IMG/VR virus record: IMGVR_UViG_2778261579_000007
Span: 1 to 13,940 of that record
DNA length: 13,940 bases
Strand: one strand, 5' to 3'
DNA from: a virus
Lineage: Duplodnaviria; Heunggongvirae; Uroviricota; Caudoviricetes
Shown here: in pieces, positions 1-13,940 of the stretch
Numbering within the stretch: position 1 is the stretch's first letter
Layout: each line of letters starts with the position of its first letter
Position numbers and translations under genes: made by a program
Notes under the pieces: generated by a model
Database searches by the model: none
Told to the model about the DNA's origin: nothing
What the model saw: only the letters and a program-made list of their open reading frames with translations

Positions 1-49
1 CGGCCAGACGGAGGTCGCTGTCTTCACAGCTTACGAACCTGAGGAGTAA
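1..49 (+). CDS. hokD: Hok-family toxin, 3' end only (gene starts upstream of window)
   Basis: Frame beginning at nt 2 translates GQTEVAVFTAYEPEE then TAA at 47-49; this matches my memory of the HokD/RelF C-terminus. Followed by a GNRA hairpin (58-77) and an intrinsic terminator. Confidence 0.6.
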   Translation, partial: GQTEVAVFTAYEPEE

Positions 50-118
50 GAGACCCGGCGAGGGAGAAATCCCTCGCCACCTCTGATGTGGCAGGCATCC
101 TCAACGCACCCGCACTTA

Positions 119-145
119 ACCCGCTTCGGCGGGTTTTTGTTTTTA
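119..145 (+). terminator. Rho-independent terminator downstream of hokD
   Basis: Stem ACCCGC (119-124), loop TTCG, stem GCGGGT (129-134), then TTTTGTTTTT. Confidence 0.65.
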
Positions 146-265
146 TTTTCAACGCGTTTGAAGTTCTGGACGGTGCCGGAATAGAATCAAAAATACTTAA
201 GTAGCGCGCAGGGATAAGAGGGATGGTCCCTTAAAGGGGAGAGCTAATTATCCGGAAGGATTCTG

Positions 266-517
266 ATGATGAACATCGAAGAACTGCGTAAAATTTTTTG
301 TGAAGATGGCCTCTATGCTGTGTGCGTTGAAAATGGAAATCTTGTTAGTCATTACCGCATTATGTGTTTGCGAAAGAATGGGGCTGCGTTAATTAATTTT
401 GTGGATGGTCGAGTGACAGACGGATTTATCTTGCGCGAAGGTGAGTTTGTCACTTCATTACAGGCACTGAAAGAGATCGGAATAAAAGCAGGCTTTTCAG
501 CTTTTGCAGAAGAATAA
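266..517 (+). CDS. rem: Rem-like small prophage protein, 83 aa
   Basis: ATG at 266 preceded by GGAAGGA (254-260); 83-aa ORF. Position between hokD and ydfU matches Qin gene order from memory. N-terminus MMNIEEL resembles the Gns family. Confidence 0.55.
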   Translation: MMNIEELRKIFCEDGLYAVCVENGNLVSHYRIMCLRKNGAALINFVDGRVTDGFILREGEFVTSLQALKEIGIKAGFSAFAEE

Positions 518-583
518 ACTCATCTACAATCTTGCGCGGGGCTGAACTCCCGCTGAGTAACACCGTGCCACCGGAGAAAACCG

Positions 584-862
584 ATGGCACGCAACGTAAA
601 ATATTACAATTCTGATAATTCGCCCGTTCTTGCCTGCACGCACGGGCGGTATTCTCACGCATTCAAGTCTGAATGGTTCCAGCACCCTCCATGCACTGCA
701 GAACAGGCCGAATGGCTGATTCATTCTTACCGCAGGCGCGGGTTCGAGGTTAAGAAAGCTCTCAGTCTCGACTATCGGCACTGGATAATCTCTGTCAGGC
801 TGCCTTATTCCGAACGCCCACCACGTGCGTCCCGCACTTTCCAGCAACGGATCTGGAGGTAA
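584..862 (+). CDS. Hypothetical phage protein, 92 aa, translationally coupled to ydfU-like gene
   Basis: ATG 584 with GGAG 8 nt upstream; stop TAA 860-862 lies immediately before the GTG 864 start of the next gene. No family recognised. Confidence 0.45.
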   Translation: MARNVKYYNSDNSPVLACTHGRYSHAFKSEWFQHPPCTAEQAEWLIHSYRRRGFEVKKALSLDYRHWIISVRLPYSERPPRASRTFQQRIWR

Positions 863-863
863 C

Positions 864-1913
864 GTGCGGGTATTACTTAGACCTGTTCTGGTGCCTGAGC
901 TTGGGCTGGTGGTCCTTAAGCCGGGCCGTGAATCCATACAGATATTTCATAATCCTCGAGTGCTGGTGGAACCGGAACCAAAAAGCATGCGTAATCTGCC
1001 ATCCGGAGTCGTTCCTGCCGTTCGCCAGCCGCTGGCGGAAGACAAAACATTGCTACCGTTTTTTAGTAACGAACGGGTGATTCGTGCTGCTGGCGGCGTT
1101 GGCGCATTGTCTGACTGGCTATTACGTCATGTTACATCCTGCCAGTGGCCTAATGGCGATTACCATCACACTGAAACAGTCATTCACCGTTATGGTACCG
1201 GCGCAATGGTGTTGTGCTGGCACTGCGACAACCAACTGCGTGACCAGACATCGGAATCACTGGAGCTGCTTGCTCAACAAAATCTGACAGCATGGGTGAT
1301 TGACGTCATCCGTCACGCAATAAGCGGTACGCAGGAGCGGGAATTATCTTTGGCTGAATTATCCTGGTGGGCGGTCTGCAATCAGGTGGTGGATGCACTA
1401 CCTGAGGCTGTATCGCGTCGTTCGCTGGGATTACCAGCGGAAAAAATCTGCTCGGTGTACCGCGAAAGCGACATCGTACCGGGAGAGCAGACCGCCACCA
1501 GCATATTGAAACAACGCACAAAAAATCTTGCACCGTTGCCTTACGCCCACCAGCAACAAAACCCATCACAGGAAAAGACGGTGGTAAGCATCAACGTTGA
1601 TCCAGAGTCTCCGGAATCTTTCATGAAGCTGCCTAAACGTCGCCGCTGGGTTAAGGAGAAATACACTCGTTGGGTTAAGACACAGCCGTGTGCTTGCTGC
1701 GGTATGCCAGCCGACGATCCGCATCATCTGATTGGTCACGGGCAGGGCGGAATGGGAACAAAAGCACATGATCTCTTTGTGTTGCCTTTGTGCAGAAAGC
1801 ATCACAACGAGCTGCATACGGATACAGTGGCATTTGAAGAGAAGTATGGCTCCCAACTGGAGCTGATATTTCGTTTTATCGATCGCGCGCTGGCAATTGG
1901 CGTACTGGCGTAA
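864..1913 (+). CDS. ydfU: DUF968-type prophage protein with C-terminal HNH-like Cys/His motif, 349 aa
   Basis: GTG 864 preceded by GGAGG (855-859) gives 349 aa, the length I recall for K-12 YdfU. The ORF track extends to an upstream GTG at 825 without an RBS. C-terminus CACCG...HHLIGHGQGG...CRKHHNELH is HNH-like. Confidence 0.65.
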   Translation: MRVLLRPVLVPELGLVVLKPGRESIQIFHNPRVLVEPEPKSMRNLPSGVVPAVRQPLAEDKTLLPFFSNERVIRAAGGVGALSDWLLRHVTSCQWPNGDYHHTETVIHRYGTGAMVLCWHCDNQLRDQTSESLELLAQQNLTAWVIDVIRHAISGTQERELSLAELSWWAVCNQVVDALPEAVSRRSLGLPAEKICSVYRESDIVPGEQTATSILKQRTKNLAPLPYAHQQQNPSQEKTVVSINVDPESPESFMKLPKRRRWVKEKYTRWVKTQPCACCGMPADDPHHLIGHGQGGMGTKAHDLFVLPLCRKHHNELHTDTVAFEEKYGSQLELIFRFIDRALAIGVLA

Positions 1914-1926
1914 GTGGAGAACGAGC

Positions 1927-2679
1927 ATGAACCTTGAAGCCTTACCAAAATATTACTCCCCAAAATCTCCAAAATTGAGCGATGACGCTCCAGCGACAGG
2001 CACCGGTTGTTTAACAATTACGGATGTAATGGCAGCGCAGGGGATGGTGCAGTCGAAAGCACCACTTGGGTTGGCCTTATTTCTGGCAAAAGTTGGTGTT
2101 CAGGACGCTCAGTTTGCGATTGAAGGCCTGCTAAATTACGCGATGGCACTGGATAACCCGACATTGAACAAATTGAGTGAAGAAATCCGGTTACAGATTA
2201 TTCCTTACCTCGTGAATTTTGCCTTTGCTGATTACTCCAGGTCTGCGGCAAGTAAGGCTCGCTGTGAGCATTGTTCAGGTACGGGATTTTATAATGTATT
2301 GCGCGAAGTGGTGAAACACTACAGACGCGGGGAATCTGTAATCAAGGAAGAATGGGTGAAGGAACTATGTCAGCATTGCCATGGTAAGGGCGAAGTCAGC
2401 ACAGCGTGCAGAGGGTGTAAGGGTAAAGGGATTGTTCTGGATGAAAAAAGAACCCGGTTTCATGGCGTACCGGTATATAAGATTTGTGGGCGTTGTAATG
2501 GAAACCGGTTTAGTCGTTTACCGACCACGCTGGCACGACGTCATGTCCAGAAGCTGGTACCAGACCTGACCGATTATCAGTGGTATAAGGGGTATGCGGA
2601 CGTCATTGGTAAACTGGTAACAAAGTGCTGGCAGGAAGAAGCATACGCGGAAGCGCAATTGAGGAAGGTGACGAGATAA
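1927..2679 (+). CDS. quuQ: Late-gene antiterminator Q, 250 aa
   Basis: ATG 1927 with GGAGAA upstream gives 250 aa. Multiple CxxC zinc motifs (CEHCSGTG, CQHCHGKG, CRGCKGKG, CGRCNGN). Sits directly upstream of a promoter/terminator pair and the lysis cassette. Confidence 0.8.
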   Translation: MNLEALPKYYSPKSPKLSDDAPATGTGCLTITDVMAAQGMVQSKAPLGLALFLAKVGVQDAQFAIEGLLNYAMALDNPTLNKLSEEIRLQIIPYLVNFAFADYSRSAASKARCEHCSGTGFYNVLREVVKHYRRGESVIKEEWVKELCQHCHGKGEVSTACRGCKGKGIVLDEKRTRFHGVPVYKICGRCNGNRFSRLPTTLARRHVQKLVPDLTDYQWYKGYADVIGKLVTKCWQEEAYAEAQLRKVTR

Positions 2680-2710
2680 ATGATTTTTGCTGAAGATGGC
2701 GACATGATGT

Positions 2711-2739
2711 TTGCATTTTTCAAAAAATATGGATAAAAT
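2711..2739 (+). promoter_or_regulatory. Candidate late promoter pR' (-35 TTGCAT, 17-bp spacer, -10 TAAAAT)
   Basis: Hexamers at 2711-2716 and 2734-2739, immediately 3' of Q and about 50 nt 5' of an intrinsic terminator; this is the lambdoid pR'/qut/tR' layout. Sequence-only inference. Confidence 0.3.
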
Positions 2740-2784
2740 TTTTTCAATGATGGGCTTTGTATACCCGACGTTAAGAAAAAGTAG

Positions 2785-2808
2785 AAAACCCGCTGATGAG
2801 CGGGTTTT
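2785..2808. terminator. Bidirectional intrinsic terminator (candidate tR' and cspF terminator)
   Basis: AAAA-CCCGCT-GATG-AGCGGG-TTTT: perfect stem flanked by A-run and T-run, between quuQ (+) and convergent cspF (-). Confidence 0.55.
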
Positions 2809-3100
2809 GTGCTTTAAATGGGGCAATGGTAATGTTGAATCTCATCCCGGGACTCATGTCTGTTAACTTATTATTTAGCTGGTGACTTGGTTATTTGCCT
2901 GATGTTTAAAATGTTTTCTTCCAGTACAATGTCCCTAAACACAATGAGTCTGCTTATTATATTATTAGCAGAGCTATTACGGCCAAAGTACAGCATAAGC
3001 TTTTAAAGCCAATCAACCAGTCATCAAGACAGACGGGGTTATTCATAAAAACTCTCCATGTGTGATCCGATGGGGCCTGAAATTAAAGCTTTAATATAGC

Positions 3101-3313
3101 TCATGAAAGGTAAACATTGGCAGCTGAAGGGCCACGCAGACCATTTATCCGGCAAAATTCCACGCGTAATCCGGTGGTAATTTCTTCTGCATCGCGGAGA
3201 TTGAGCGCTGAAACATGAAGCTGGACATCGATACGACCATCGGATGGGGTGATAAGACCCTTGCCGCTTTTGCCGTCAAAGGTTTTGACAATTCCTGTCA
3301 TTTTACGGGACAA
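3101..3313 (-). CDS. cspF: Cold-shock protein CspF-like, 70 aa
   Basis: Translation [37 protein letters not shown]... is a CspA-family cold-shock domain; divergent from cspB as in Qin. Confidence 0.85.
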
Positions 3314-3613
3314 AAAAATTCCTTAATACTGATAACTTGGCGCACTATACACACGTTCCTGAAGAAAGCTATAGTTTTTTGATGGGGTTGAAGATGGCTG
3401 GATGTCTAAAATAAACATTGCTTCATATGTTCAACTATGCGTTAATGATTGCGTCGGTTTGAAGAACAGACGATATACGAAGTAGTTTACTAAAGCAGTT
3501 CTCATTTCAGGTGTTATTCACTTATTCCTTCTTTGAGTCTCTCCAATTAAGTACGAAGTCGTTTCTGTTATGCAAACCATTTATGCCGAAAGGCTCAAGT
3601 TAAGGAATGTAGA

Positions 3614-3829
3614 ATGTCAAATAAAATGACTGGTTTAGTAAAATGGTTTAACGCTGATAAAGGTTTCGGCTTTATTTCTCCTGTTGATGGTAGTAAAGAT
3701 GTGTTTGTGCATTTTTCTGCGATTCAGAATGATAATTATCGAACCTTATTTGAAGGTCAAAAGGTTACCTTCTCTATAGAGAGTGGTGCTAAAGGTCCTG
3801 CAGCAGCAAATGTCATCATTACTGATTAA
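3614..3829 (+). CDS. cspB: Cold-shock protein CspB-like, 71 aa
   Basis: [38 protein letters not shown]...: canonical CspA-family RNP motifs; about 300-nt upstream leader typical of cold-shock genes. Confidence 0.85.
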
Positions 3830-4110
3830 AATTCATCGCTCGTCTGTATACGATAACGAAGAAGGCTGATGCCTGAGTAGAGATACGGACAGAGTAGTGA
3901 ATATTGGATTTCTTTAATAAAATTTAAGGAGGTCCAATACATGAAACAATGGCCAGCATATTTGGCAAAATCTTAATCAGGAAAAGTATGCTAACCATTG
4001 TGGTGAAGTGCAGGTTTGCTGCATGAATAGTTTTACAGCAGAAGCTAACTGCTGGCATGGCAAAACAAAGTGCGTAAGTGGATGACTCCCACAAAAAGCA
4101 CCACAATCTC

Positions 4111-4134
4111 AAACCCGCTCAGGCGGGTTTTTTA
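4111..4134 (+). terminator. Rho-independent terminator
   Basis: AAA-CCCGC-TCAG-GCGGG-TTTTTT at 4111-4133; lies between cspB 3' region and the convergent minus-strand zinc-ribbon ORF. Confidence 0.55.
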
Positions 4135-4192
4135 TTATCTGCTTTAAATATATTATTAAAATATAAAAAATACTTGTTACTAATAAAATCAA

Positions 4193-4363
4193 TCAGGCTA
4201 CAGCTTTAAGATTTGTCTGGAATACTTTGTTGCAATGAGGGCAGATCAAAAGGGCACCTTTTTGTACTCTTGAAAAACTGTGTTCTGACTCTTGGGTGCA
4301 GTTTGGGCAGGAACATTTAACGAGATAATTACGGCGTGATTTTGAGTCTTTACGTTCTGACAT
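4193..4363 (-). CDS. Small zinc-ribbon protein, 56 aa (CxCxxC...CxxC)
   Basis: Minus-strand ATG at 4363 has AGGAAA 6 nt upstream; the ORF-track start at 4414 lacks an RBS. Motif CSCPNC-x18-CPHC. Possibly the Qin ynfU equivalent, but I cannot confirm this from memory. Confidence 0.45.
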   Translation of the reverse strand: MSERKDSKSRRNYLVKCSCPNCTQESEHSFSRVQKGALLICPHCNKVFQTNLKAVA

Positions 4364-4582
4364 AGGCTTTTCCTGTATAAATGGCCGTATACAGTACACT
4401 AAATATGAAAACATTTCTCGTATTATTATTTTATATATGACTTTCTTTCAAAATAATTACTCACATTTTTAATGTGTATGTTTCTTTAGCGCCGTTGAGA
4501 ACAGCGTGTGCTGTCAAAACTACCCCGTAGACTCCGATCTTTTCAAACATATTGCACCATCCGTGTACATCGGGGTGAGGAT

Positions 4583-4798
4583 ATGAAATCAATGGATAAG
4601 TTAACAACAGGTGTTGCCTATGGCACATCGGCGGGTAATGCTGGTTTCTGGGCATTGCAGTTACTCGATAAAGTAACTCCGTCACAGTGGGCTGCAATCG
4701 GTGTGCTGGGTAGCCTGGTTTTTGGCCTGCTGACGTATCTGACAAATCTTTATTTCAAGATTAAAGAAGACAGGCGTAAGGCTGCGAGAGGAGAGTAA
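4583..4798 (+). CDS. essQ: Class II holin/pinholin (S21-like), 71 aa, dual-start MKSM
   Basis: [71 protein letters not shown] resembles the phage 21 S21 pinholin. RBS GGGGTGAGG upstream. Met1/Met4 dual start typical of holin/antiholin. Confidence 0.8.
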
Positions 4799-4802
4799 TC
4801 CA

Positions 4803-5110
4803 ATGACTCAAGACTATGAACTGGTTGTGAAAGGAGTCCGTAATTTTGAGAATAAAGTTACGGTAACTGTAGCCTTACAGGACAAAGAACGCTTTGACGG
4901 TGAAATTTTTGGCCTGGATGTCGCCATGGACCGTGTTGAAGGAGCTGCGCTGGAGTTTTATGAGGCAGCAGCCAGAATGAGCGTCCGGCAAGTCTTCCTG
5001 GAAGTAGCAGAAAAATTGTCAGAAAAAGTTGAGTCTTATCTGCAGCATCAGTACTCCTTTAAGATTGAAAATCCTGCCAATAAGCACGAGCGTCCTCATC
5101 ATAAATATCT

Positions 5111-5114
<4 letters not shown>
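4803..5114 (+). CDS. ydfR: Hypothetical lysis-cassette protein, 103 aa
   Basis: ATG 4803 four nt after holin stop with GGAGAG upstream; stop overlaps endolysin start (ATGA at 5111-5114). Size and position match YdfR of Qin from memory. Confidence 0.55.
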
Positions 5115-6138
<1,024 letters not shown>

Positions 6139-6501
6139 ATTAATATTAAATCGGATTATTTTTAGCGCTGAATGTGAAATTTAAATAAAAAGGACTCTTC
6201 CATGAGTCAAAATCCTTGAAATCTTAAGGGTAAGATAAAAGGTCATTAGACAGAATGACACGTTTTATTAATAAATAAAGCTATTGTTTCATTCGTGTGT
6301 TTTTCTTTACAAAAGTAATCCTTGCTATGGTTGGTTAATCATGCGTTAATGGTGTTCTGGTTTGTTACAAAATTATCTGAAGCAGTCATTGTTATAATTT
6401 TATTATTTGTACCTCTTGAGATTTCCTTGTTGGTTTTTCTCTCTGATATTTTTTTTCGGACCATTCTGCCCAAGGGCTAACTTCTTCAAAAGGTAATAAT
6501 G

Positions 6502-6714
6502 ATGTCTAACAAAATGACTGGTTTAGTGAAATGGTTTAACCCTGAAAAAGGTTTTGGTTTCATCACGCCGAAAGATGGTAGCAAAGATGTGTTTGTGCAT
6601 TTCTCAGCTATTCAGAGCAACGATTTCAAAACGTTAACTGAGAATCAGGAAGTCGAATTTGGTATTGAGAACGGACCTAAAGGCCCTGCAGCTGTTCATG
6701 TAGTGGCACTTTGA
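6502..6714 (+). CDS. cspI: Cold-shock protein CspI-like, 70 aa
   Basis: [45 protein letters not shown]...; second ATG of the ORF chosen to give the canonical CspA-family N-terminus; about 360-nt AT-rich leader upstream. Confidence 0.85.
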
Positions 6715-6918
6715 GGTAGAAAATATTACAAACCATATTCACTTTAGATGCCCGTGTTGCCATGGTTCTCAGTATAGAACATCATCTTTTGATGTTTCTG
6801 ACAGAAATCCTTTCGGGGCAAAATGTATCTTTTGTAAATCAATGATGATTACATTTGATAATATTTCACAATACTTAAATGTTAGCCATCTGTCGTTAGA
6901 TTTAAGAAAGTGAAAATG

Positions 6919-6941
6919 AAGGCTCCTTCGGGAGCTTTTTT
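6919..6941 (+). terminator. Rho-independent terminator
   Basis: AAGGCTCC-TTCG-GGAGCTTT then T-run; 8-bp stem with TTCG loop. Confidence 0.55.
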
Positions 6942-6985
6942 GCTTAGTGTCTAGTCGATGGATACTCACATATTACGGTAACATT

Positions 6986-7216
6986 ATGAAAAAAATAATA
7001 GTTTTTTTTAACTCTGAACCAGCAATGGTAGTGCCAGTGATGACCGGAGTTAACACCATCATGCGTGAATATCCAAATGGCGAAACAACACACCTCACTG
7101 TAATGGCTGCAGGGTTTCCATCTCTGACCGGAGATCATAAAGTCATTTATGTAGCAGCGGATCGACATGTAACTTCAGAAGAAATTCTGGAAGCAGCAAT
7201 GAGACTCTTGAATTGA
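6986..7216 (+). CDS. Hypothetical small protein, 76 aa, upstream of gnsB-like gene
   Basis: ATG 6986 (MKKIIVFF...), weak RBS. The ORF-track GTG at 6947 overlaps the terminator and is less likely. Occupies the position of ynfN in Qin. Confidence 0.35.
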   Translation: MKKIIVFFNSEPAMVVPVMTGVNTIMREYPNGETTHLTVMAAGFPSLTGDHKVIYVAADRHVTSEEILEAAMRLLN

Positions 7217-7388
7217 TTTGATTCTAATGCATTGATAATAAATGATAATCATCTTTATCTGTTTGTGTGAAATTTAGACCGTCGTATGTTGATTATTGCG
7301 ATGTTTCATCTTATCTTTTATACGTTTGCTCCATATAATTGACACTACTGTGTACCAGGACAGTCATAACAGACTAAAAGAGGAAATG

Positions 7389-7562
7389 ATGAACATTGAA
7401 GAGTTAAAAACAAAAACAGAAGCAGATATTTCTGAATATATAACAAAAAAAATCATTGAGCTTAAGAAAAAGACCGGGAAAGAAGTTACCAGTATCCAGT
7501 TTACTGCACGGGAAAAAATGACTGGTCTTGAAAGCTATGATATCAAGATTGATTTAATCTAG
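7389..7562 (+). CDS. gnsB: GnsA/GnsB-family protein, 57 aa
   Basis: MNIEELKTKTEADISEYITKKIIELKKKTGKEVTSIQFTAREKMTGLESYDIKIDLI; AAGAGG RBS at 7377-7382. Strong resemblance to the GnsA/GnsB family from memory. Perfect TATAAT at 7334-7339 upstream. Confidence 0.7.
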   Translation: MNIEELKTKTEADISEYITKKIIELKKKTGKEVTSIQFTAREKMTGLESYDIKIDLI

Positions 7563-7857
7563 CATGTTTATAGTATTAGCATCAATTTCTCATCAGATGC
7601 TATTCAACAATACAAATTACCCATAAACCTCGTTTTTACGGGGTTTTGTTATATTTAAACATTACCGAATAGATATAAATCTCGATTGTCGATGGTATTG
7701 GTTGTGTGACAATACCTAGTCTTTCCGGTATGCCTGAAGAGAATACAAACGACAGATTATGTAAGGGAAACGCGCTGAAACTTTCACTCTTTCATGCTGA
7801 GTGATTTGACGTTATATTTTTAGCCGCAAGTGAAGAGCAAACGAATGGAGCGACAAA

Positions 7858-8064
7858 ATGCATAAAGATCAATACACTGATGCCCCCTCCCAGGAGCAGG
7901 TTCGTGTAAAAACTATGCTTAATAGCACCATTTCGATGGGTTACCCGGATGTTGTAATTGCATGTATAGAACATCAAGTATCTCTGGAAGCATTCAGGGC
8001 AATTGAGGCCGCGTTAGTAAAGCACGATAAGAATACGAAGGATTATTCCCTGGTGGTTGACTGA
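7858..8064 (+). CDS. Hypothetical protein, 68 aa
   Basis: ATG 7858 with GGAG about 8 nt upstream; occupies the ydfO position of Qin but is shorter. No motif recognised. Confidence 0.35.
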
Positions 8065-8400
8065 TCACCATAACTGCTAACCATTCTGACCATTTCACAA
8101 GTGACAGAGTCAATATCGTATTCTGTCACTGTAAGGCTAATACAGTACTGCAATTCAACTACAGCAATGCCTCGTATTTAGGTGAATTTACAATATCGTC
8201 CAGTTCGGATGCCGGCTGCATTTCTGAAGATAAGGCATTTCGGTTCGCGTATTTTCCCCTCATGCTCGTCAGTCCTGCGCGTAGTAAGAAACAGGACACT
8301 CACACTAATTTGTGTGGGCATGCTGTGATGTCCTTCTGAATTATCCCCATGCCATTATGTAACGCTCTGTTTCAGATGCTCGTCACGGTTGTCAGGCTGT

Positions 8401-8485
8401 CGGGTCCTCCCAGTGGGGGTCCCTGCCACGGGGCGGGAGCGTCGCGGAAAAAGGCTAGTTTTTGAAATTTCATCCGTCATCACCA
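8401..8485. repeat. cos-like site copy 1 (cosQ-like GGGTCCTCCC, putative cosN 8431-8442 GGGCGGGAGCGT, start of cosB)
   Basis: Aligns to lambda cos junction recalled from memory (...ACGGGTCCTTTCCGGTGATCCGACAGGTTACG | GGGCGGCGACCT CGCGGG...). Nu1-like ATG lies 186 nt downstream of the putative cosN start; lambda has 190. Confidence 0.6.
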
Positions 8486-8616
8486 CTACTGTAATAGATT
8501 GATATTACAGTATTTTTATTTTTGCGGTGTCGATTTTGATTGTTTTTTGTTCATCACTAACACCGTTTGCCTAAAGTCGTTCGCAAGATGCATGTTTAAA
8601 ACATTCTGGAGCGGGT

Positions 8617-9111
8617 ATGGATCGAGAGTTAAAAAATCTGACGCTGAATATCAGTCAACTGGCGGCACTGTCAGGTGTACATCGCCAGACTGCTGCGGCA
8701 AGGCTGCAAAATCTACCCGTTGCAGGGGGGCATGAAAGCAACCTCAAGCTTTATCGGGTGGTTGATATTGTGTCGGCATTTCTGGCATTACCACCGCCGG
8801 TTGCAGAAGGCGAAATGGACGCGCATGAGCGCAAAGCCTGGTATCAGTCTGAACGTGAGCGTCTTAAGTTCGAACAGGAAACGGCGCAACTCATTCCGGC
8901 CAGTGATGTCAGACGGGAGTTTGCCATCTGGGCAAAAGCGGTCGTGCAGGTGCTGGAGACATTACCGGATATTCTGGAACGTGACTGCGGTCTGCAGCCT
9001 GCCGCTGTGAGCCGTGTTCAGTCCATTATTGATGATCTGCGCGATCAGATAGCCCTGCGGGTGACTGAAGCAGGTGCGGATGATGAGGAGGAATTACAGC
9101 AGGAGGAGTAA
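8617..9111 (+). CDS. Terminase small subunit, Nu1-like (copy A), 164 aa
   Basis: N-terminal HTH-like segment (LNISQLAALSGVHRQTAAARL) and overall pattern resemble lambda Nu1; GGAG RBS; positioned at the correct distance from cos; stop overlaps next ORF start (TAATG). Confidence 0.7.
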   Translation: MDRELKNLTLNISQLAALSGVHRQTAAARLQNLPVAGGHESNLKLYRVVDIVSAFLALPPPVAEGEMDAHERKAWYQSERERLKFEQETAQLIPASDVRREFAIWAKAVVQVLETLPDILERDCGLQPAAVSRVQSIIDDLRDQIALRVTEAGADDEEELQQEE

Positions 9112-9308
9112 TGCTGAATCAGGAAACCGCAAAGGCAGCACGAACCGATTCAGGTTATATCCTTCGCGCACCGAGACGAATGCGGGTTGCTGATGCCGTT
9201 GCTCAGTATATGCGGGTGCCCATGGGGGCAGGGAACTCAGTCCCGTGGGATCCGCTGGTGGCACCGTATGTTATTGAGCCTATGAACTGCCTGGCCTCGC
9301 GTGAATAG
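9111..9308 (+). CDS. Short ORF coupled to terS copy A, 65 aa (possible terminase-large-subunit remnant)
   Basis: ATG overlaps terS stop in the normal terS-terL coupling arrangement, but the ORF is only 65 codons; weak resemblance of PWDPLVAPYVIEPMN to the lambda gpA N-terminal region. Confidence 0.3.
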   Translation: MLNQETAKAARTDSGYILRAPRRMRVADAVAQYMRVPMGAGNSVPWDPLVAPYVIEPMNCLASRE

Positions 9309-9343
9309 ACAACCATCAACATTAAGTCCGGAGAGCAGACAGC

Positions 9344-9766
9344 ATGACAGCACAGATAGCAGCTTACGGGCGGCTGGCAAATGACCCGCAGTTAAAGACC
9401 ACCAGCAAGGGTACACAAATGGCAATGGCGAGTATGGCGGTCCCGCTGCCATGCAGCCAGGCAGATGACGGAACGGCGACGATGTGGTTATCCGTCTTGG
9501 CATTTGGCAGGCAGGCCGAAGCGCTGGCAAAGCACCGCAAGGGGGAACTCCTGAGCGTGGCTGGTAACATGCAGGTGAACCAGTGGACAGGCCAGAACGG
9601 CGAAATACGGCAGGGCTGGCAGGTTATCGCAGACAGTGTAATCAGTGCCAGAACGGCGCGACCAGGTGGTAAAAAAGGCCAACTGGGGCAGGCCACTGAC
9701 GCACTGAACAGGGCAAAACAACAGGCGGGAAATGATGATCCGTACGGGGATGAAATACCGTTTTAA
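9344..9766 (+). CDS. Single-stranded DNA-binding protein (SSB)-like, 140 aa, with C-terminal DEIPF tail
   Basis: OB-fold pattern alignable by eye to E. coli SSB (IAAYGRLANDPQLK.. vs ILVGNLGQDPEVRY..; WLSVLAFGRQAEALAKHRKGELLSVAGNMQVNQWTGQNG vs [40 protein letters not shown]) and acidic tail ending IPF. GGAGAG RBS. Confidence 0.7.
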   Translation: MTAQIAAYGRLANDPQLKTTSKGTQMAMASMAVPLPCSQADDGTATMWLSVLAFGRQAEALAKHRKGELLSVAGNMQVNQWTGQNGEIRQGWQVIADSVISARTARPGGKKGQLGQATDALNRAKQQAGNDDPYGDEIPF

Positions 9767-9781
9767 GCAACGAGTAACAGA

Positions 9782-9805
9782 AGCCGGAGCAATCCGGCTT
9801 TTTTA
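9782..9805 (+). terminator. Rho-independent terminator immediately 5' of cos copy 2
   Basis: AGCCGGA-GCAA-TCCGGCT followed by TTTTT. Confidence 0.6.
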
Positions 9806-9880
9806 TGGGTCCTCCCGGTGTAGTGACCTGCCACGGGGCGGGAGCGTCGCGGAAAAAGGCTGGTTTTTGCATTTTCATGG
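9806..9880. repeat. cos-like site copy 2 (cosQ-cosN, putative cosN 9836-9847 GGGCGGGAGCGT), orphan: no cosB/terS follows
   Basis: Near-identical to copies 1 and 3 over about 70 bp, then diverges into AT-rich sequence unrelated to the cosB/terS leader of the other copies. Confidence 0.6.
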
Positions 9881-10064
9881 CGGCGGCAGCATGTGTGATA
9901 ATTTATTGATAATTAAAAATTATTTCTGTTTTCACCTGTACAATATTTTTTTCTCCCTGTCATTAGACCAGTTTGCAATTAATTGAAATATATAAATAAA
10001 TTGGTTTTTCACCTGCCAGATGGAGTTGCCTGTGCAAAACGTGTTCAGATGGCGGGATATTTAT

Positions 10065-10087
10065 GCCGGATTCTCTCCGGCTTTTTT
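10065..10087 (+). terminator. Rho-independent terminator
   Basis: GCCGGA-TTCTC-TCCGGC followed by TTTTTT; same stem sequence as the 9782 terminator. Confidence 0.5.
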
Positions 10088-10189
10088 GTGTCTGAATCTG
10101 ATTAATCTATTTTTATGATAGAAATATGTTTATCTACCACTTTTATCGATCAATAATGCGCGCAGTTTAGTCAGTAAGAGGAAGTTACT

Positions 10190-10399
10190 GTGAATTGTAT
10201 TAACGACCTGAACACAGGCGAGGTAAAAGGTGGTTCCGTTCATCTGGATGCGCAGACCGTTATGCGCCTTAAGCAGTACAGGATCGACCACATAAATCAT
10301 CATCCTGACCAACCATTACCAGGTGCGGCGCAGATTGTCAGACACGCAGTTAACGCGTGGCTTGATAAGAATGGTTTTGCATCTGGGGGTGAGCAATGA
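10190..10399 (+). CDS. Hypothetical small protein, 69 aa, coupled to protease/capsid gene
   Basis: GTG 10190 with strong AAGAGGAAG RBS; in-frame stop 5 codons upstream so it is not a fragment of a longer frame; stop overlaps downstream ATG (ATGA). Confidence 0.45.
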   Translation: MNCINDLNTGEVKGGSVHLDAQTVMRLKQYRIDHINHHPDQPLPGAAQIVRHAVNAWLDKNGFASGGEQ

Positions 10400-12309
10400 A
10401 TCACTGGTACACCATTAAGGCGCTGGGTGTTCGCGGAGCGGCAGAAATATCCATCTATGAAGAAATTGGCGGCTTCGGTATTACCGCGAAGAAGTTTGCG
10501 GAAGACCTGAAAGCCCTGGGCGATGTCTCACATATCGACCTGCGGATCCATTCGCCAGGTGGTGACGTGTTTGAAGGCATCGCCATCTATAACCTGTTAC
10601 GGAATCATCCGGCAGAAATTACGGTTTATATCGATGGTGTTGCGGCTTCAATGGCTTCGGTTGTCGCAATGGCTGGCGATCGTGTTGTGATGCCGGAAAA
10701 CGCCATGATGATGATACATAAGCCGTGGGGTATCTCTGGCGGAAATGCTGGTGATATGCGTGATTATGCTGATTTGCTGGATAAGGTGGAAACCGTGTTA
10801 GTCCCTGCTTATGCCAGAAAAACGGGCAAATCAGCACAGGAAATTACCGCCATGCTGGAAGATGAAACCTGGATGGACGGGAAAGAATGCCTTAAGCACG
10901 GTTTTGCTGATGAATTGTTGCCATCTGTCACAGCAATGGCGCGAATTGAATCGAAACGCACAGGAGATTTTTCACACATGCCGGAAACCATTAAAGGAAT
11001 GATTATCCCGCCACAGGGAGCAGCCAATATTGCTGGTAATGAACAGAAGCGCATCAACGGAATAAGTGAAGTGTTTAGCCTGTTCGGCAGTCGTTACGAC
11101 GGGATCAAAATGGCGTGCCTGGAGGATGCATCATGTACACCGGAGATGGCCCGTGAAAAGTTGTTGAACGAGCTGGGGCGCGAGTCCACGCCATCCAATA
11201 AAAATATCCCGACTCATATTTATGCCGGTAACGGGAACATAACAGGCGATGCAATTCGTCAGGGGCTTTATTCTCGTCTCGGGTATGAACGCCCAGAGCG
11301 GGGAAATCCTTATGCGATGATGAGCCTTTTTGAAATGGCCCAGGCATCACTAACTGATCGTGGTATCAGTGTTGGCAGTTTTTTAAATCGCTCGCAGGTC
11401 GTTAATGCAGCTTTCACACACAGCAGCAGCGATTTTTCTCATATTCTGGCTGGTGGTGCTGAAAAGTCAGTGCTGAAAGGCTGGCAGGACAGCGGCGAAA
11501 CGTTCCAGAAATGGACGCGTACCGGATCGCTTTCAAACTTTCATGAAGCAAAGCGCGTTGGTCTGAATGGTTTTTCAAAGCTGGATAAAGTACCGGAAGG
11601 TGCGGAATATAAATACATCACCACCAGCGATAAAGGTGTACCTATTGCGCTGGCCACATACGGTAATATTTTTTCTGTTACCCGTCAGGCCATTATCAAC
11701 GATGACCTGACCCAGTTAACTACAATCCCCATGGCGATGGGGCGTGCGGCCGCCAGAACAGTAGGTAATCTGGTTTATCTTCTGTTAACCAGCAACGGCA
11801 AATTTACGGATGGTAAAGCGTTATTCCATGCCGATCATAAAAATCTTATTGCGAAGGATATGGACATGGAGGGGCTTAACGAAGCCCGTAAGCTGATGCG
11901 ATTACAGGAGGATGCCAACGGCGACTCCCTGAATATTACCCCCGCTTTTGTTCTGGTCCCTGCTGCGCTGGAGTCTGCCGCACATCGCGCCATTCTGTCA
12001 TCGTCATCACTCTTTCCGATTGATGGTGGAGGCACTATCAATCAGAACCCCGGCATCATTAACGCGGTGAAAGATATGGCAGAGGTTATCGTCGAGCCGC
12101 GTCTTGATAAAGCCAATAACAAGGAGTGGTATGTGGCAGCGGCGAAGGGGATGGACACGATAGAGGTCGCTTATCTTGATGGTATTGATACGCCATATCT
12201 TGAGGAGCAGGAGGGATTTACTGTTGATGGCGTCGCCTGGAAGGTGCGCATAGATGCAGGTGTCGCGGCCCTCGACTATCGCGGATTACTGAAATCGAGT
12301 GGAGCATGA
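10396..12309 (+). CDS. Prohead protease (ClpP/S14-like) fused to HK97-fold major capsid protein, 637 aa
   Basis: N-terminal ClpP-like motifs (HSPGGDV, GVAASMASVVAMAGD with candidate catalytic Ser, MMIHKPW with candidate His); C-terminal about 350 aa resemble capsid proteins of Gifsy-type lambdoid phages as I recall them. Confidence 0.75.
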   Translation: MNHWYTIKALGVRGAAEISIYEEIGGFGITAKKFAEDLKALGDVSHIDLRIHSPGGDVFEGIAIYNLLRNHPAEITVYIDGVAASMASVVAMAGDRVVMPENAMMMIHKPWGISGGNAGDMRDYADLLDKVETVLVPAYARKTGKSAQEITAMLEDETWMDGKECLKHGFADELLPSVTAMARIESKRTGDFSHMPETIKGMIIPPQGAANIAGNEQKRINGISEVFSLFGSRYDGIKMACLEDASCTPEMAREKLLNELGRESTPSNKNIPTHIYAGNGNITGDAIRQGLYSRLGYERPERGNPYAMMSLFEMAQASLTDRGISVGSFLNRSQVVNAAFTHSSSDFSHILAGGAEKSVLKGWQDSGETFQKWTRTGSLSNFHEAKRVGLNGFSKLDKVPEGAEYKYITTSDKGVPIALATYGNIFSVTRQAIINDDLTQLTTIPMAMGRAAARTVGNLVYLLLTSNGKFTDGKALFHADHKNLIAKDMDMEGLNEARKLMRLQEDANGDSLNITPAFVLVPAALESAAHRAILSSSSLFPIDGGGTINQNPGIINAVKDMAEVIVEPRLDKANNKEWYVAAAKGMDTIEVAYLDGIDTPYLEEQEGFTVDGVAWKVRIDAGVAALDYRGLLKSSGA

Positions 12310-12315
12310 CAACAA

Positions 12316-12339
12316 GGGCGGCGATAGCCGCCTTTTTTT
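12316..12339 (+). terminator. Rho-independent terminator immediately 5' of cos copy 3
   Basis: GGGCGGC-GATA-GCCGCC followed by TTTTTTT. Confidence 0.6.
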
Positions 12340-12340
12340 A

Positions 12341-12427
12341 CGGGTCCTCCCGGTGTAGTGACCTGCCACGGGGCGGGAGCGGCGCGGAAAAAGGCTAGTT
12401 TTTGCATTTTTATTCGTCATCATCATC
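12341..12427. repeat. cos-like site copy 3 (cosQ-cosN-cosB, putative cosN 12371-12382 GGGCGGGAGCGG)
   Basis: Same element as copies 1 and 2; Nu1-like ATG 196 nt downstream of putative cosN; leader 12534-12566 nearly identical to 8584-8616. Confidence 0.6.
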
Positions 12428-12566
12428 TTTCTATTATATTGAATTTTAAGTGTTTTTATTTTTGGTATGTTAATTTTGCTTATTTTGTGTTCAACATGCA
12501 GCGCGTTTTTTGACCTTTTTTAAAAGATATTTGCAAGATGCATTTTTAAAACATTCTGGAGCGGGT

Positions 12567-13052
12567 ATGGATCGGGAACTGAAAAATCTGATGCTGAACA
12601 TTAACCAGCTGGCGGCGATAGCGGGAATATGTCGCCAGACTGCGGCGGCAAGGCTGAAAAATATCCAGCCAGCCGGAGGACATGACAAGCTGAAACTCTA
12701 TCGGGTGACTGACATTCTGACCTGTTTTCTTGATCTTCCCGTTCCGGCATCACTGGAAGAAATGGAGCCACACGACCGTAAGGCCTGGTATCAGTCCGAA
12801 CGTGAGCGCCTCAAGTTCGAACAGGAAACGGCGCAACTCATACCCGCCGATGATGTGCGAAAAGAGATGGCTATATGGGGAGAAATCGTAAGCGAGGAAC
12901 TGGAAAAACTCCCCAGTATTCTGGCACGTGATGTTGGGCTTAAACCGATGGCAGTAAACAGAGTGCAGTCAATTATTGACGATTTGTGTAATCAGATTAT
13001 CAGCCGGATGGTAAAAAATGACGTAGTGAATGAGGTCGCAAAACAGGCATGA
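12567..13052 (+). CDS. Terminase small subunit, Nu1-like (copy C), 161 aa
   Basis: Start MDRELKNL is homologous to the copy A start and has the same GGAGCGGGT-ATG RBS context; the ORF track extends to ATG 12510, but that region is not coding in copy A. About 65-70% aa identity to copy A by eye. Confidence 0.7.
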   Translation: MDRELKNLMLNINQLAAIAGICRQTAAARLKNIQPAGGHDKLKLYRVTDILTCFLDLPVPASLEEMEPHDRKAWYQSERERLKFEQETAQLIPADDVRKEMAIWGEIVSEELEKLPSILARDVGLKPMAVNRVQSIIDDLCNQIISRMVKNDVVNEVAKQA

Positions 13053-13336
13053 TAATGACCGAATCTGAAATACTGCGATTAATCCGCTGTGCTGGTGGAA
13101 TTAGCCAGTTGGCTGACGAACAGGCCGCGCAGCCGGATACAGTCACCGCTGAAAATTACGCGCGTGTGGTGGCTGAGGTGATGCGCCGTGACGGTATTGA
13201 GCTTAACGGCGTGGATATGCGCAACATACGAACCAGAGTCCTTGAGTTGCTGGCATACCGTCGCCGTTCTCAACAACGGAGGGAGAGCGCGAAAAATACT
13301 TATCAGTGGAAGAAGCCGGAATGGTTGCGGCGGTAA
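13049..13336 (+). CDS. Probable truncated terminase large subunit (N-terminal 95 codons only)
   Basis: ATGA overlap with terS stop; N-terminus TESEILRLIRCAGGISQL resembles lambda gpA N-terminus (SQVNRLRHFVRAGLRSL) from memory; the ORF stops after 95 codons and downstream frames are full of stops. Confidence 0.4.
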   Translation: MIMTESEILRLIRCAGGISQLADEQAAQPDTVTAENYARVVAEVMRRDGIELNGVDMRNIRTRVLELLAYRRRSQQRRESAKNTYQWKKPEWLRR

Positions 13337-13710
13337 TTTGTTGATATTCCTGATAGCGCAAAAGTGCGTTGGCTGGTGGGTGAGTTGCAGATCTGCAACT
13401 CGACCATGAAATTACGGAAACTACCCGTAGTTTGGGTAGTAAGAGTAACACCCAGATTTTGGGGCTTACTTGCGATACCCAAATAAAGGGTATCGGTGGA
13501 AGAAATATCGTTTCTCATATGTGAGTTCCGAGAGCGGAATTCCGCCTCTGATTTGTCATTGTGATCATGCATAGCGGCAATAATTAATATTGCTTCCTTT
13601 TTTGCTTTTTTATCGCTTAAGCAGGTACTAAATCTGGGACTATGTTGTAGGGGGCATAACTCAATAGTACCTTATAATCATTTAGTTACCTTTTATTTAC
13701 TTCTTCCTGG

Positions 13711-13940
13711 ATGGAGGGTCCGGCAGCTGCTTATCAGACACTCTCGCAACTCGTTTACAAACTGCTTACTGCAGAACAGGAATACGAGACAACCGGAAGT
13801 GAAGAGACACTCAAGACGGTTATCAATACCGACTGGGGATTACCTTATCTTCCCCGCGCCAGCATGGAGCAACGAAAAAGTGAATTGCTTGAGCAGCGGG
13901 CAGAGCCAGTTCCTTCCCGCAGTGTGCCGGATGGCGTTAA
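13711..13940 (+). CDS. Hypothetical protein, 5' part only (ORF runs off window end)
   Basis: ATG 13711 opens a frame with no stop to the end of the window (76 codons); TATAAT at 13673-13678 upstream; no clear RBS. Function unknown. Confidence 0.3.
   Translation, partial: MEGPAAAYQTLSQLVYKLLTAEQEYETTGSEETLKTVINTDWGLPYLPRASMEQRKSELLEQRAEPVPSRSVPDGV

What the first reader, a model, noticed from the sequence alone, without database searches (positions are those of the whole stretch)
9806..12340. Orphan cos followed by a stand-alone protease/capsid fusion gene, with no terminase or portal
Between cos copies 2 and 3 the only substantial gene is a 637-aa ClpP-like protease fused to a major capsid domain, preceded by a coupled 69-aa ORF and ended by a terminator. 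In intact lambdoid head modules this gene follows terS, terL and portal; here terL and portal are absent and the unit is bracketed by cos sites. A capsid-protein homologue carried next to a cos site is reminiscent of the capsid-size-redirecting Ccm reported for cos-type staphylococcal satellite islands. It could alternatively be a remnant of a deleted head module.
Basis: partly seen in the sequence, partly recalled or inferred. Interest (0 to 1): 0.7.

Follow-up and report, generated by a model that had tools for sequence, protein, structure and literature searches.

The report
Capsid and packaging end of a phage satellite
The lone capsid gene between two cos sites is the right-hand end of a small phage-parasite island (a PICI satellite) sitting inside the terminase gene of a prophage, which is a known kind of element whose capsid gene still has no proven job.

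Summary
Three co-oriented cos sites exist, with cosN at 8431, 9836 and 12371. Between cos2 and cos3 lie a real 69-aa gene, translationally coupled to an intact 637-aa ClpP-protease/major-capsid fusion gene, followed by a terminator.

It is not a deleted head module. In complete E. coli genomes the same DNA (95-100% identical) is the late zone of a ~10.8-kb island: int, HTH, Bro, Icd, DUF4222, primase, SSB, cos2, p69, capsid, cos3, TerS homologue, p93. That backbone matches the model satellite EcCICFT073. The island sits either next to clpS or inside helper terL, at the att core TGGATGKAGGGT.

In the window only the right 4.4 kb survives, joined at 9307|9308 to terL nucleotide 197. That join is a deletion or a misassembly; the window is a whole draft contig.

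- cos2 is a complete cos of cdtI-type phages.
- cos3 is the island's own cos, next to its own TerS.
- The capsid gene belongs to a satellite-specific lineage: 78% identical between genera, 53-57% to helpers, dN/dS about 0.1.

A Ccm-like capsid role is plausible but untested. This is a new member of a known kind, of moderate interest.

The parts
8402..8616 (+). cos1: the prophage's own cos. cosQ at 8402, cosN at 8431-8442 (GGGCGGGAGCGT), and a cosB holding a perfect 10-bp inverted repeat at 8487-8512.
   Evidence: Matches the genome start of mEp460-type phages.
8617..9111 (+). Helper (prophage) small terminase, DUF1441 type, 164 aa.
   Evidence: Pfam DUF1441 E 3e-41; phrog_141 'terminase small subunit' E 7e-74.
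9111..9307 (+). First 197 nt of the prophage terL (gpA type). It ends at the junction 9307|9308, where an in-frame TAG is created.
   Evidence: Window 1-9310 aligns with KE58 up to terL nt 200; sequences across the junction are shown.
9308..9347 (+). Last 40 nt of the island's 82-aa gene. This is the left edge of the surviving island DNA.
   Evidence: Window 9308-13940 is 100% identical to IMT16316 L001 20250-24882.
9344..9766 (+). Island SSB gene (140 aa), the last gene of the replication zone.
   Evidence: Pfam SSB E 3.5e-15; 68% identical to the EcCICFT073 SSB.
9779..9806 (+). Terminator-like hairpin and U-run after SSB, abutting cosQ of cos2.
   Evidence: dG -15.4 kcal/mol, z -4.6. 23 nt of it are identical in EcCICFT073.
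9807..10038 (+). cos2: a complete heterologous cos of cdtI-type phages. cosQ at 9807, cosN at 9836-9847, a cosB with two ~39-nt direct repeats (9900-9938 and 9977-10015), and the first few codons of the cdtI terS. No terS gene follows.
   Evidence: 91% identity over 233 nt to the cdtI end/start junction; repeats. Present in the E. coli copies, absent from the Enterobacter copies.
10065..10087 (+). Terminator-like hairpin after the terS stub.
   Evidence: dG -10.6 kcal/mol, z -4.0.
10190..10399 (+). p69: a small, conserved, satellite-specific protein with a strong Shine-Dalgarno sequence and GTG start, translationally coupled to the capsid gene. Its fold is unresolved.
   Evidence: No match in 50,697 phage records. 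The AlphaFold2 model has pLDDT 59 and shows two helices; no fold match.
10396..12309 (+). 637-aa ClpP-like prohead protease / linker (scaffold-like) / HK97-type major capsid fusion, of the satellite lineage.
12314..12341 (+). Terminator-like hairpin and U-run after the capsid gene, abutting cosQ of cos3.
   Evidence: dG -16.2 kcal/mol, z -5.7.
12342..12566 (+). cos3: the island's own cos. cosQ at 12342, cosN at 12371-12382 (GGGCGGGAGCGG; the 12th base is G in every island copy read), and an island-specific cosB about 79% like the helper's but lacking its inverted repeat.
12567..13052 (+). Island small-terminase homologue TerS' (DUF1441, 161 aa). It is 67.5% identical to the helper TerS, with a different C-terminal tail.
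13055..13336 (+). p93: a conserved last gene of the PICI backbone, function unknown.
   Evidence: phrog_1561 E 1e-51; 875 protein clusters; 73% identical to the last gene of EcCICFT073; also the last gene of capsid-forming PICIs next to clpS.
13337..13719 (+). Right arm of the island and attR. The core TGGATGGAGGGT lies at 13708-13719.
   Evidence: Similarity to the clpS-site islands ends at 13571.
13707..13940 (+). Prophage terL resumes at about nt 987 of the gene and runs off the contig.
   Evidence: 98.7% identical to KE58 terL at L002 16097-16330.

Best explanation
The segment 9806-12340 is the capsid part of the late (packaging) zone of a PICI-type phage satellite with an EcCICFT073-like backbone. 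In intact relatives the island is about 10.8 kb and is ordered int, HTH, Bro-N, Icd-like, DUF4222, D5-type primase, 82-aa gene, SSB, cos2, p69, protease/capsid fusion, cos3, TerS', p93.

Here the island lies inside the gpA-type terL gene of a Qin-like lambdoid prophage and points the same way as that gene, the helper-embedded configuration. In this contig only the right 4.4 kb (9308-13719) is present.

Shown:
- the identity of the element, its borders and attR;
- three cos sites with three different cosB regions;
- cos2 is the full cos of cdtI-type phages;
- the capsid fusion and p69 form a conserved, selected, satellite-specific gene pair.

Inferred mechanism for intact copies:
1. After helper induction the island excises, replicates with its own primase and forms concatemers.
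2. Its TerS' binds the island-specific cosB of cos3 and recruits the helper's TerL to cut cosN and package island DNA. This is the cos-type equivalent of a SaPI small terminase.
3. cos2 lets a second helper family (cdtI-type) package the island with its own unmodified terminase.
4. The p69 and protease/scaffold/capsid pair is expressed with the late genes. In the embedded state this would be by Q-antiterminated read-through of the three terminators. The proteins assemble on the helper's portal, giving satellite-made or mixed capsids.

The window's copy lacks int, attL, primase and probably the origin, so it cannot move by itself. Its late genes remain inside the prophage late operon.
For: Identity and context:
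- Window 9308-13940 is 100% identical to E. coli IMT16316.
- Intact islands lie inside terL with complete helpers in strains 20 and C6.
- The same late zone, 95-96% identical, sits next to clpS with another integrase.
- attL and attR share the core TGGATGKAGGGT, which equals the uninterrupted terL sequence; the island measures 10,766 bp.
- The backbone is shared with EcCICFT073: SSB 68% and p93 73% identical, and a small ORF coupled to a capsid gene occupies the same position.

Literature:
- Gram-negative PICIs commonly carry a capsid gene (21 of 29 reference islands).
- They can sit inside helper late genes (PMC10111431).
- EcCICFT073 has two cos sites (PMC6092414, PMC6739421).

cos sites.

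TerS': DUF1441 / phrog_141, 67.5% identical to the helper TerS.

Capsid lineage:
- 78% identity between the E. coli and Enterobacter islands against 53-57% to helpers, with a conserved length of 637/638 aa against 675 aa.
- dN/dS 0.10-0.15 in all three domains.
- The protease Ser and His motifs (AASMAS, MIHKP) are kept.

p69-capsid adjacency in 78 of 79 loci.

No sigma-70-like promoter on the + strand in 9300-13800, which is consistent with read-through expression.
Against: - No experiment exists on this island. Packaging by TerS' at cos3, use of cos2 by cdtI-type phages and any capsid role are all inferences.
- In EcCICFT073 the island's capsid and decoration genes were dispensable for interference, and DNA was packaged at phage size (PMC6092414).
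- The predicted recognition helix of TerS' (RQTAAARL) is identical to the helper's, so a different cosB specificity is not evident from the protein.
- cos2 is missing from about a quarter of close relatives and from all more distant ones, so it is dispensable.
- The left junction 9307|9308 is found in no complete genome, and the window is a whole draft contig. The truncation could therefore be an assembly error.
- The 67-aa HTH next to the terL-type integrase has no Pfam match, including none to Phage_AlpA, at E 1e-3.
Confidence: 0.85

Rival explanations
1. Ccm-like size redirection. The island's capsid homologue, perhaps with p69, co-assembles with helper capsid protein. This forces small capsids that fit the ~10.8-kb island and exclude the ~44-kb helper genome. 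It is a specific version of the last inferred step above, not a rival to the element's identity.
For: - The protein is a diverged, selected homologue of the helper capsid protein carried by a cos-type satellite.
- Its linker between protease and capsid domain is 29 aa shorter than the helper's.
- It has a conserved small partner protein of about 70 aa, with two predicted helices.
- Precedent: SaPIbov5 Ccm, as cited in bioRxiv 10.1101/2022.09.08.507074 and PMC8569155.
Against: - EcCICFT073, with the same backbone, makes no small capsids, and its capsid homologue is dispensable (PMC6092414).
- Four island copies (43 kb) would fill a helper-sized head, so small capsids are not required.
- Nothing here measures capsid size.
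Confidence: 0.25
2. Remnant of a deleted prophage head module. The gene would be the prophage's own protease/capsid gene, left behind after terL and portal were deleted.
For: - terL is indeed broken on both sides of the block.
- The contig shows a deletion-like junction at 9307|9308.
Against: - The gene is only 56% identical to the capsid fusion of the same type of prophage. That fusion is still present downstream of the island in IMT16316, strain 20 and C6.
- The block is bounded by a site-specific att core.
- It travels with int, primase and SSB to a chromosomal site next to clpS.
- p69 and p93 are absent from 50,697 phage records, apart from one weak p93 hit.
Confidence: 0.03
3. Anti-phage or interference cargo. 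The capsid fusion acts as a poison subunit against related incoming or resident phages. TerS', at 67% identity, forms mixed and inactive oligomers with helper TerS. The extra cos sites act as decoys. The benefit would be helper inhibition rather than capsid building.
For: - Classical PICIs interfere strongly with their helpers, and Rpp works by binding helper TerS (PMC6739421).
- TerS' is close enough to the helper TerS to co-oligomerise, yet has a different C-terminal tail.
- The truncated window copy keeps exactly these genes, inside a late operon.
Against: - No match to any PADLOC defence model, apart from a chance-level hit for p93.
- The capsid homologue of EcCICFT073 did not contribute to interference (PMC6092414).
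- An intact protease catalytic motif and strong selection on all domains fit a working assembly protein better than a mere poison.
Confidence: 0.15
4. The left border, and hence the 'orphan' look of the locus, is an assembly artefact. The real genome would carry a complete helper-embedded island as in IMT16316, with the contig wrongly joining terL nt 197 to the island's 82-aa gene.
For: - The window is an entire 13,940-bp draft contig.
- The junction is absent from 5,426 complete genomes.
- Window 5250-8250 and 9308-13940 are 100% identical to IMT16316, while the stretch 8345-9245 just left of the junction differs by about 1%, as if taken from another prophage copy.
Against: - No repeat is shared at the junction that would explain a mis-join.
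- The window also differs from IMT16316 further left (1914-4556 is replaced), so the prophage is mosaic in any case.
- Other contigs ending at terL nt 197 are retrieved by construction of the exact-product look-up, so they say nothing either way.
Confidence: 0.3

Closest known systems
EcCICFT073 and other Gram-negative PICIs (Fillol-Salom et al. 2018, 2019; PMC6092414, PMC6739421)
   Same: - Same backbone order in intact copies: int, HTH, Icd-like, DUF4222, D5-type primase, small gene, SSB, small ORF coupled to a capsid-protein gene, cos, packaging-specificity gene, 93-aa last gene.
- SSB is 68% and p93 73% identical.
- Both carry two cos sites with lambda-like cosQ/cosN and non-helper cosB, and both use cos-type lambdoid helpers.
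   Different: - The capsid gene here is a protease/scaffold/capsid fusion of the mEp460/Gifsy type, not lambda-E-like plus a decoration gene.
- The specificity gene is a full TerS homologue (DUF1441), not Rpp.
- The two cos sites are co-oriented and flank the capsid gene. In EcCICFT073 they are inverted and flank rpp.
- One cos here is a full copy of a known phage's cos.
Helper-embedded PICIs (Tommasini, Mageeney and Williams 2023; PMC10111431)
   Same: - The island is integrated inside a helper late gene and co-oriented with it.
- It carries a homologue of a helper late gene.
- The same p69-capsid-cos-DUF1441 module occurs in Enterobacter islands at their C:CLP_protease:110 site, with the published doubled TGTATTGC motif.
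   Different: - The target here is a gpA-type terL at about codon 330. The terminase sites found in that paper's supplementary files all carry Terminase_1 labels, and no Terminase_GpA label occurs there (file 3 was cut when stored).
- The integrase is only 28% identical to one of that clade.
- The doubled motif is absent.
SaPIbov5 Ccm (cos-type staphylococcal island)
   Same: A cos-packaged satellite that carries a homologue of its helper's major capsid protein and a copy of a helper cos site.
   Different: - No sequence relationship was tested.
- The protein here also contains an intact protease and a linker.
- Size redirection is unproven here and was not seen in the nearest studied relative.
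Capsid-forming PICIs (EcCIEDL933; bioRxiv 10.1101/2022.09.08.507074)
   Same: They share the replication zone type, the clpS-side attachment site and the p93 last gene. They also encode their own capsid protein and protease.
   Different: cf-PICIs additionally encode portal, head-tail connectors, HNH, TerS and TerL. This island has none of these except a TerS homologue.

Membership tests
Gram-negative PICI (EcCICFT073 type) | Tyrosine integrase at one end and specific att sites | tested here: not met
   The window holds only attR (13708-13719); int and attL are missing. Intact copies of the same island have a 399-aa or 412-aa integrase and both att sites.
Gram-negative PICI (EcCICFT073 type) | AlpA-type regulator or excisionase next to int | tested here: inconclusive
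   Absent from the window. Intact terL-site copies have a 67-aa HTH gene after int, but it has no Pfam match, including none to Phage_AlpA, at E 1e-3. The Enterobacter relatives do have Phage_AlpA.
Gram-negative PICI (EcCICFT073 type) | Own primase/replicase module | tested here: not met
   Only SSB survives in the window. Intact copies have a 605-aa D5_N/DUF5906/Pox_D5 primase.
Gram-negative PICI (EcCICFT073 type) | About 10-15 kb, no lysis or tail genes, genes co-oriented | tested here: met
   10,766 bp between att cores in strain 20, with no tail or lysis gene. One variant (C6) has captured a tail-assembly gene.
Gram-negative PICI (EcCICFT073 type) | Packaging hijack determinants (cos and/or TerS or Rpp) | tested here: met
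   cos2, cos3 and TerS' are all in the window.
Gram-negative PICI (EcCICFT073 type) | Sequence homology of backbone genes to a validated PICI | tested here: met
   SSB 68% and p93 73% identical to EcCICFT073; nucleotide matches of 77-79%.
Gram-negative PICI (EcCICFT073 type) | Induction by, and high-frequency transfer with, a helper phage | not testable with these tools
   Needs induction and transduction experiments.
Helper-embedded PICI (Tommasini et al. 2023) | [quoted passage not shown] | tested here: met
   terL 5' part at 9111-9307 and 3' part from 13707, attR core at 13708, all on the + strand. A complete helper surrounds the island in strains 20 and C6.
Helper-embedded PICI (Tommasini et al. 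2023) | Integrase of the single HE-PICI clade | tested here: not met
   The terL-site integrase is 28% identical to a C:CLP_protease:110 integrase and 21-22% to the EcCICFT073 and clpS-site integrases. No tree was built.
Helper-embedded PICI (Tommasini et al. 2023) | Doubled TGTATTGC motif in both attP arms | tested here: not met
   No match in the window with up to 3 mismatches, nor in the attP rebuilt from strain 20. The motif is present in the Enterobacter island used as a control.
Ccm-type capsid-size redirector | Satellite-encoded homologue of the helper major capsid protein | tested here: met
   56% identity over the full length to the helper's fusion protein.
Ccm-type capsid-size redirector | Causes small capsids that exclude the helper genome | not testable with these tools
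The result was negative for the capsid homologue of EcCICFT073 (PMC6092414).
Capsid-forming PICI | Encodes portal, connectors, HNH, TerS and TerL besides capsid and protease | tested here: not met
   In the window, ORFs and Pfam scans of the island part show only the protease/capsid fusion and a TerS homologue. In intact copies the record annotation lists no portal, connector, HNH or TerL gene inside the island.
Rpp-based packaging redirection | Rpp protein next to the island cos | tested here: not met
   The gene after cos3 is a full DUF1441 TerS homologue. Neither it nor p93 matches any solved chain at E <= 0.05. The EcCICFT073 gene in that position (144 aa) shows no BLASTP similarity to it.

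The most novel reading that the evidence does not exclude
The p69 and protease/scaffold/capsid pair is a minimal capsid-forming module. With only two genes the satellite would build its own, possibly smaller, proheads on a stolen helper portal. That would be an intermediate between classical PICIs, which steal whole capsids, and capsid-forming PICIs, which steal only tails. The two different cos sites would let the same island be packaged by two helper families, one through its own TerS' at cos3 and one through the helper's unmodified terminase at cos2. This would answer the question left open for EcCICFT073 of why some PICIs carry two cos sites.
Probability: 0.2. Interest if true: 0.65.

Novelty: new member of a known kind. 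Interest (0 to 1): 0.35.

Why it matters
The finding turns an odd-looking 'capsid gene between two cos sites' into a recognisable piece of a phage satellite, so it should not be scored as a new system.

Three details are useful to people who work on satellites:
- The function of the capsid genes carried by most Gram-negative PICIs is unknown. This lineage is clearly selected, differs from every helper, and always comes with a small partner gene, which makes it a good test case.
- One of the two cos sites can be assigned to a known phage group. That gives a testable reason for dual cos sites.
- The island's terL-targeting integrase is unrelated to the published helper-embedded clade. Integration into helper late genes therefore seems to have arisen more than once.

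For genome annotation, p69 is missing from the RefSeq records read here, which annotate an antisense ORF at its position.

Tried and rejected
- Sequence search of TerS', p93 and a p69 profile against all solved structures gave nothing meaningful and no Rpp-like hit.
- The AlphaFold2 model of p69, built from 13 homologues, was low confidence (pLDDT 59), and Foldseek against the PDB gave only noise. The ribbon-helix-helix idea, suggested by the 'GGSVHLDAQTVMRLK' start, is therefore unsupported.
- A profile comparison of p69 with the 68-aa ORF that precedes the EcCICFT073 capsid gene was colinear but not significant (probability 2%). Position is shared; homology is not shown.
- p93 was tested as a TerL N-terminal mimic or a W-like protein and showed no similarity. 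It is a general PICI backbone gene.
- PADLOC gave no defence-system match.
- Rfam found only the two cspA thermoregulators of the prophage.
- IMG/VR contigs were inspected for cos-ended or circular island genomes as evidence of packaging. They are provirus predictions trimmed at gene borders, so they are uninformative on that point.
- Other assemblies whose contigs end exactly at terL nt 197 looked at first like support for a recurrent junction. The exact-product look-up can only return such contigs, so this was discarded.
- The sigma-70 promoter scan found nothing on the + strand in the island part.
- The first fetch of the CFT073 region returned the icd prophage rather than the island.


Full report
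**1. What is in the window**

The window is a whole 13,940-bp draft contig, NLND01000052.1 of assembly GCA_002229195.1.

Positions 1-9307 are the late region of a Qin-like lambdoid prophage. In order it carries rem, ydfU, a Q-type antiterminator, cspF/cspB, lysis genes, cspI, ynfN, gnsB, cos1, a DUF1441 small terminase, and the first 197 nt of a gpA-type terL. This stretch is 98.7% identical to E. coli KE58.

From 9308 to the end the contig is 100% identical to E. coli IMT16316.

**2. The observation**

An 80-nt unit occurs three times in direct orientation. Each copy has a lambda-like cosQ and cosN. Deposited genomes of related cos phages (cdtI, Tritos) begin at the base that aligns with window 8431.

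Between cos2 and cos3 lie:
- a 69-aa ORF (10190-10399);
- a 637-aa gene overlapping it by 4 nt, with an N-terminal ClpP-like protease domain and a C-terminal HK97-type capsid domain;
- a strong terminator-like hairpin.

The 69-aa ORF is a real gene. It matches a PHROG family and is conserved in four genera. It shows third-position substitution bias, and a homologue sits just upstream of the capsid gene in 78 of 79 related loci.

**3. What it is**

In complete genomes the segment 9308-13571 is always the right end of a small island. The gene order is integrase, HTH, Bro-N, Icd-like, DUF4222, D5-type primase, 82-aa gene, SSB, cos2, p69, capsid fusion, cos3, DUF1441 TerS homologue, 93-aa gene.

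In 129 of 5,426 complete E. coli genomes one place covers at least 80% of window 9100-13940. Two locations were seen:
- Between cspD/yljB and clpS.
- Inside terL of a complete lambdoid prophage, as in strains 20 and C6. There attL and attR share the core TGGATGKAGGGT, which is the uninterrupted terL sequence, and the island is 10,766 bp.

The window contains that attR at 13708-13719, and terL resumes at about nt 987 of the gene.

The backbone is that of the model satellite EcCICFT073:
- SSB is 68% identical.
- The last gene is 73% identical.
- A small ORF is coupled to a capsid gene in the same position.
- A cos lies in front of the packaging-specificity gene.

The literature already states that Gram-negative PICIs commonly carry a capsid gene and can sit inside helper late genes (PMC10111431), and that EcCICFT073 has two cos sites (PMC6092414, PMC6739421). 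The finding is therefore the late zone of a PICI-type satellite in the helper-embedded configuration.

**4. Not a deleted head module**

The 637-aa protein is only 56% identical to the helper's own 675-aa fusion. That fusion is still present downstream of the island in the complete genomes.

No phage record is close: 1,581 of 1,582 matching records are below 60% identical, and the best listed are 56.8%.

The island proteins of E. coli and Enterobacter are 78% identical to each other and 53-57% to helpers, with a conserved length of 637/638 aa. dN/dS is 0.10-0.15 across the protease, linker and capsid domains. The protease Ser and His motifs are kept.

p69 and p93 are absent from 50,697 phage records, apart from one weak p93 hit.

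**5. The cos sites**

- cos1 is the prophage's own cos. Its cosB has a perfect 10-bp inverted repeat.
- cos3 lies in front of the island's TerS'. It has an island-specific cosB without that repeat, and a cosN whose 12th base is G in every island copy read.
- cos2 is not a partial duplicate. Over 233 nt it is 91% identical to the whole cos of phage cdtI, from cosQ through cosB to the first codons of the cdtI terS, after which similarity stops and a terminator follows.

cos2 is an accessory feature. The Enterobacter relatives and all loci with 71-79% capsid identity have only the downstream cos. About a quarter of the close E. coli relatives also lack cos2.

So 'capsid gene bracketed by cos sites' is not a conserved unit. 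The conserved core is p69, capsid, cos, then the TerS homologue.

**6. How it most likely works**

These steps are inferred for intact copies:
1. Excision, followed by replication with the island's own primase.
2. TerS' binds the cosB of cos3 and recruits helper TerL.
3. cos2 allows packaging by cdtI-type helpers using their own terminase.
4. The capsid pair is expressed with the late genes.

No sigma-70-like promoter is seen on the + strand. In the embedded state the three terminators would be read through by the Q-modified polymerase. That step rests on established lambda biology and was not tested here.

The capsid protein probably assembles on the helper portal. Whether this changes capsid size (Ccm-like), merely supplies subunits, or poisons the helper is open. 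The EcCICFT073 precedent is negative for size redirection (PMC6092414).

TerS' is 67.5% identical to the helper TerS, with an identical putative recognition helix and a different C-terminal tail. Both altered specificity and mixed-oligomer interference remain possible.

**7. The window's copy**

The join at 9307|9308 links terL nt 197 to the last 40 nt of the island's 82-aa gene, with no shared repeat. It removes the following, by comparison with IMT16316 and strain 20:
- terL nt 198 to about 990;
- attL, int, the HTH gene and the Bro-N gene;
- the Icd-like gene, DUF4222 and the primase.

The join occurs in no complete genome. The stretch just to its left differs by about 1% from IMT16316, while both neighbouring stretches are identical to it. 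I cannot tell a real deletion from a misassembly. If it is real, this copy is an immobile remnant whose late genes remain inside the prophage late operon.

**8. Comparison and novelty**

Membership in the Gram-negative PICI family is supported by backbone homology and by the architecture of intact copies. The window itself lacks the integration and replication zones.

The element fits the helper-embedded configuration. Its integrase, however, is only 28% identical to one of the published clade, and the published doubled motif is absent. The target, a gpA-type terL, was not found under a Terminase_GpA label in the supplementary files of that paper held here (file 3 was cut when stored).

It is not a capsid-forming PICI, since it has no portal, connectors or TerL. 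It does not carry Rpp.

Overall this is a new member of a known kind. Interest is moderate, at 0.35. The open and testable parts are the role of the satellite-lineage capsid pair and the dual-cos design.

Noticed in passing
L005 5638-16415 (E. coli strain 20); also L006 and L001; attR in the window at 13708-13719: The islands inside terL use a 399-aa integrase that is only 28% identical to an integrase of the published helper-embedded clade and 21-22% to the EcCICFT073 and clpS-site integrases. Their att arms lack the published doubled TGTATTGC motif. The target is a gpA-type terL at about codon 330, with core TGGATGKAGGGT. This looks like an independent origin of integration into a helper late gene.
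   Followed up: partly
window 9308-13571 against L003, L004 and L005: The same replication and late zones (95-96% identical) are joined to two unrelated integration modules, one for the clpS site and one for the terL site. The integration zone has therefore been swapped as a module.
   Followed up: partly
window 10130-10303 (- strand) against 10190-10399 (+ strand): The RefSeq records read here annotate a 57-aa antisense ORF (WP_001475270.1 or WP_001298307.1) and omit the conserved 69-aa gene on the + strand. Codon-position bias and cross-genus conservation favour the + strand gene.
   Followed up: yes
L006 15033-15733 (E. coli C6): One island variant has an extra tail-assembly gene and a tail-gene fragment inserted between the capsid gene and cos3. 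This is an example of late-gene capture in the island's late zone.
   Followed up: no
window 13055-13336; L013-L015 10001-10294; L022 33374-33655: The 93-aa last gene is shared by this island, by EcCICFT073 and by capsid-forming PICIs at the clpS site (875 protein clusters). It is always the final gene before the right att site. It has a very basic C-terminal tail, and its function is unknown.
   Followed up: partly
window 3453-3845 and 6344-6760: Two cspA-type thermoregulator leaders (Rfam RF01766) precede the cspB-like and cspI-like genes of the prophage. They account for the 200-nt direct repeat at 3614-3813 and 6502-6701.
   Followed up: no
window 12382 against 8442 and 9847: The 12th base of the putative cohesive end is G in cos3 of every island copy read, but T in cos1, cos2 and the helpers. 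Ends cut at cos3 and at cos2 would therefore not be fully complementary.
   Followed up: no
L082-L101 (IMG/VR): A second lineage of island-borne protease/capsid fusions (62% identical to this one) sits in similar ~10-kb elements. Each has a p69-like gene (about 37% identical) directly upstream. My cosN pattern found no cos downstream of the capsid gene in any of them.
   Followed up: no
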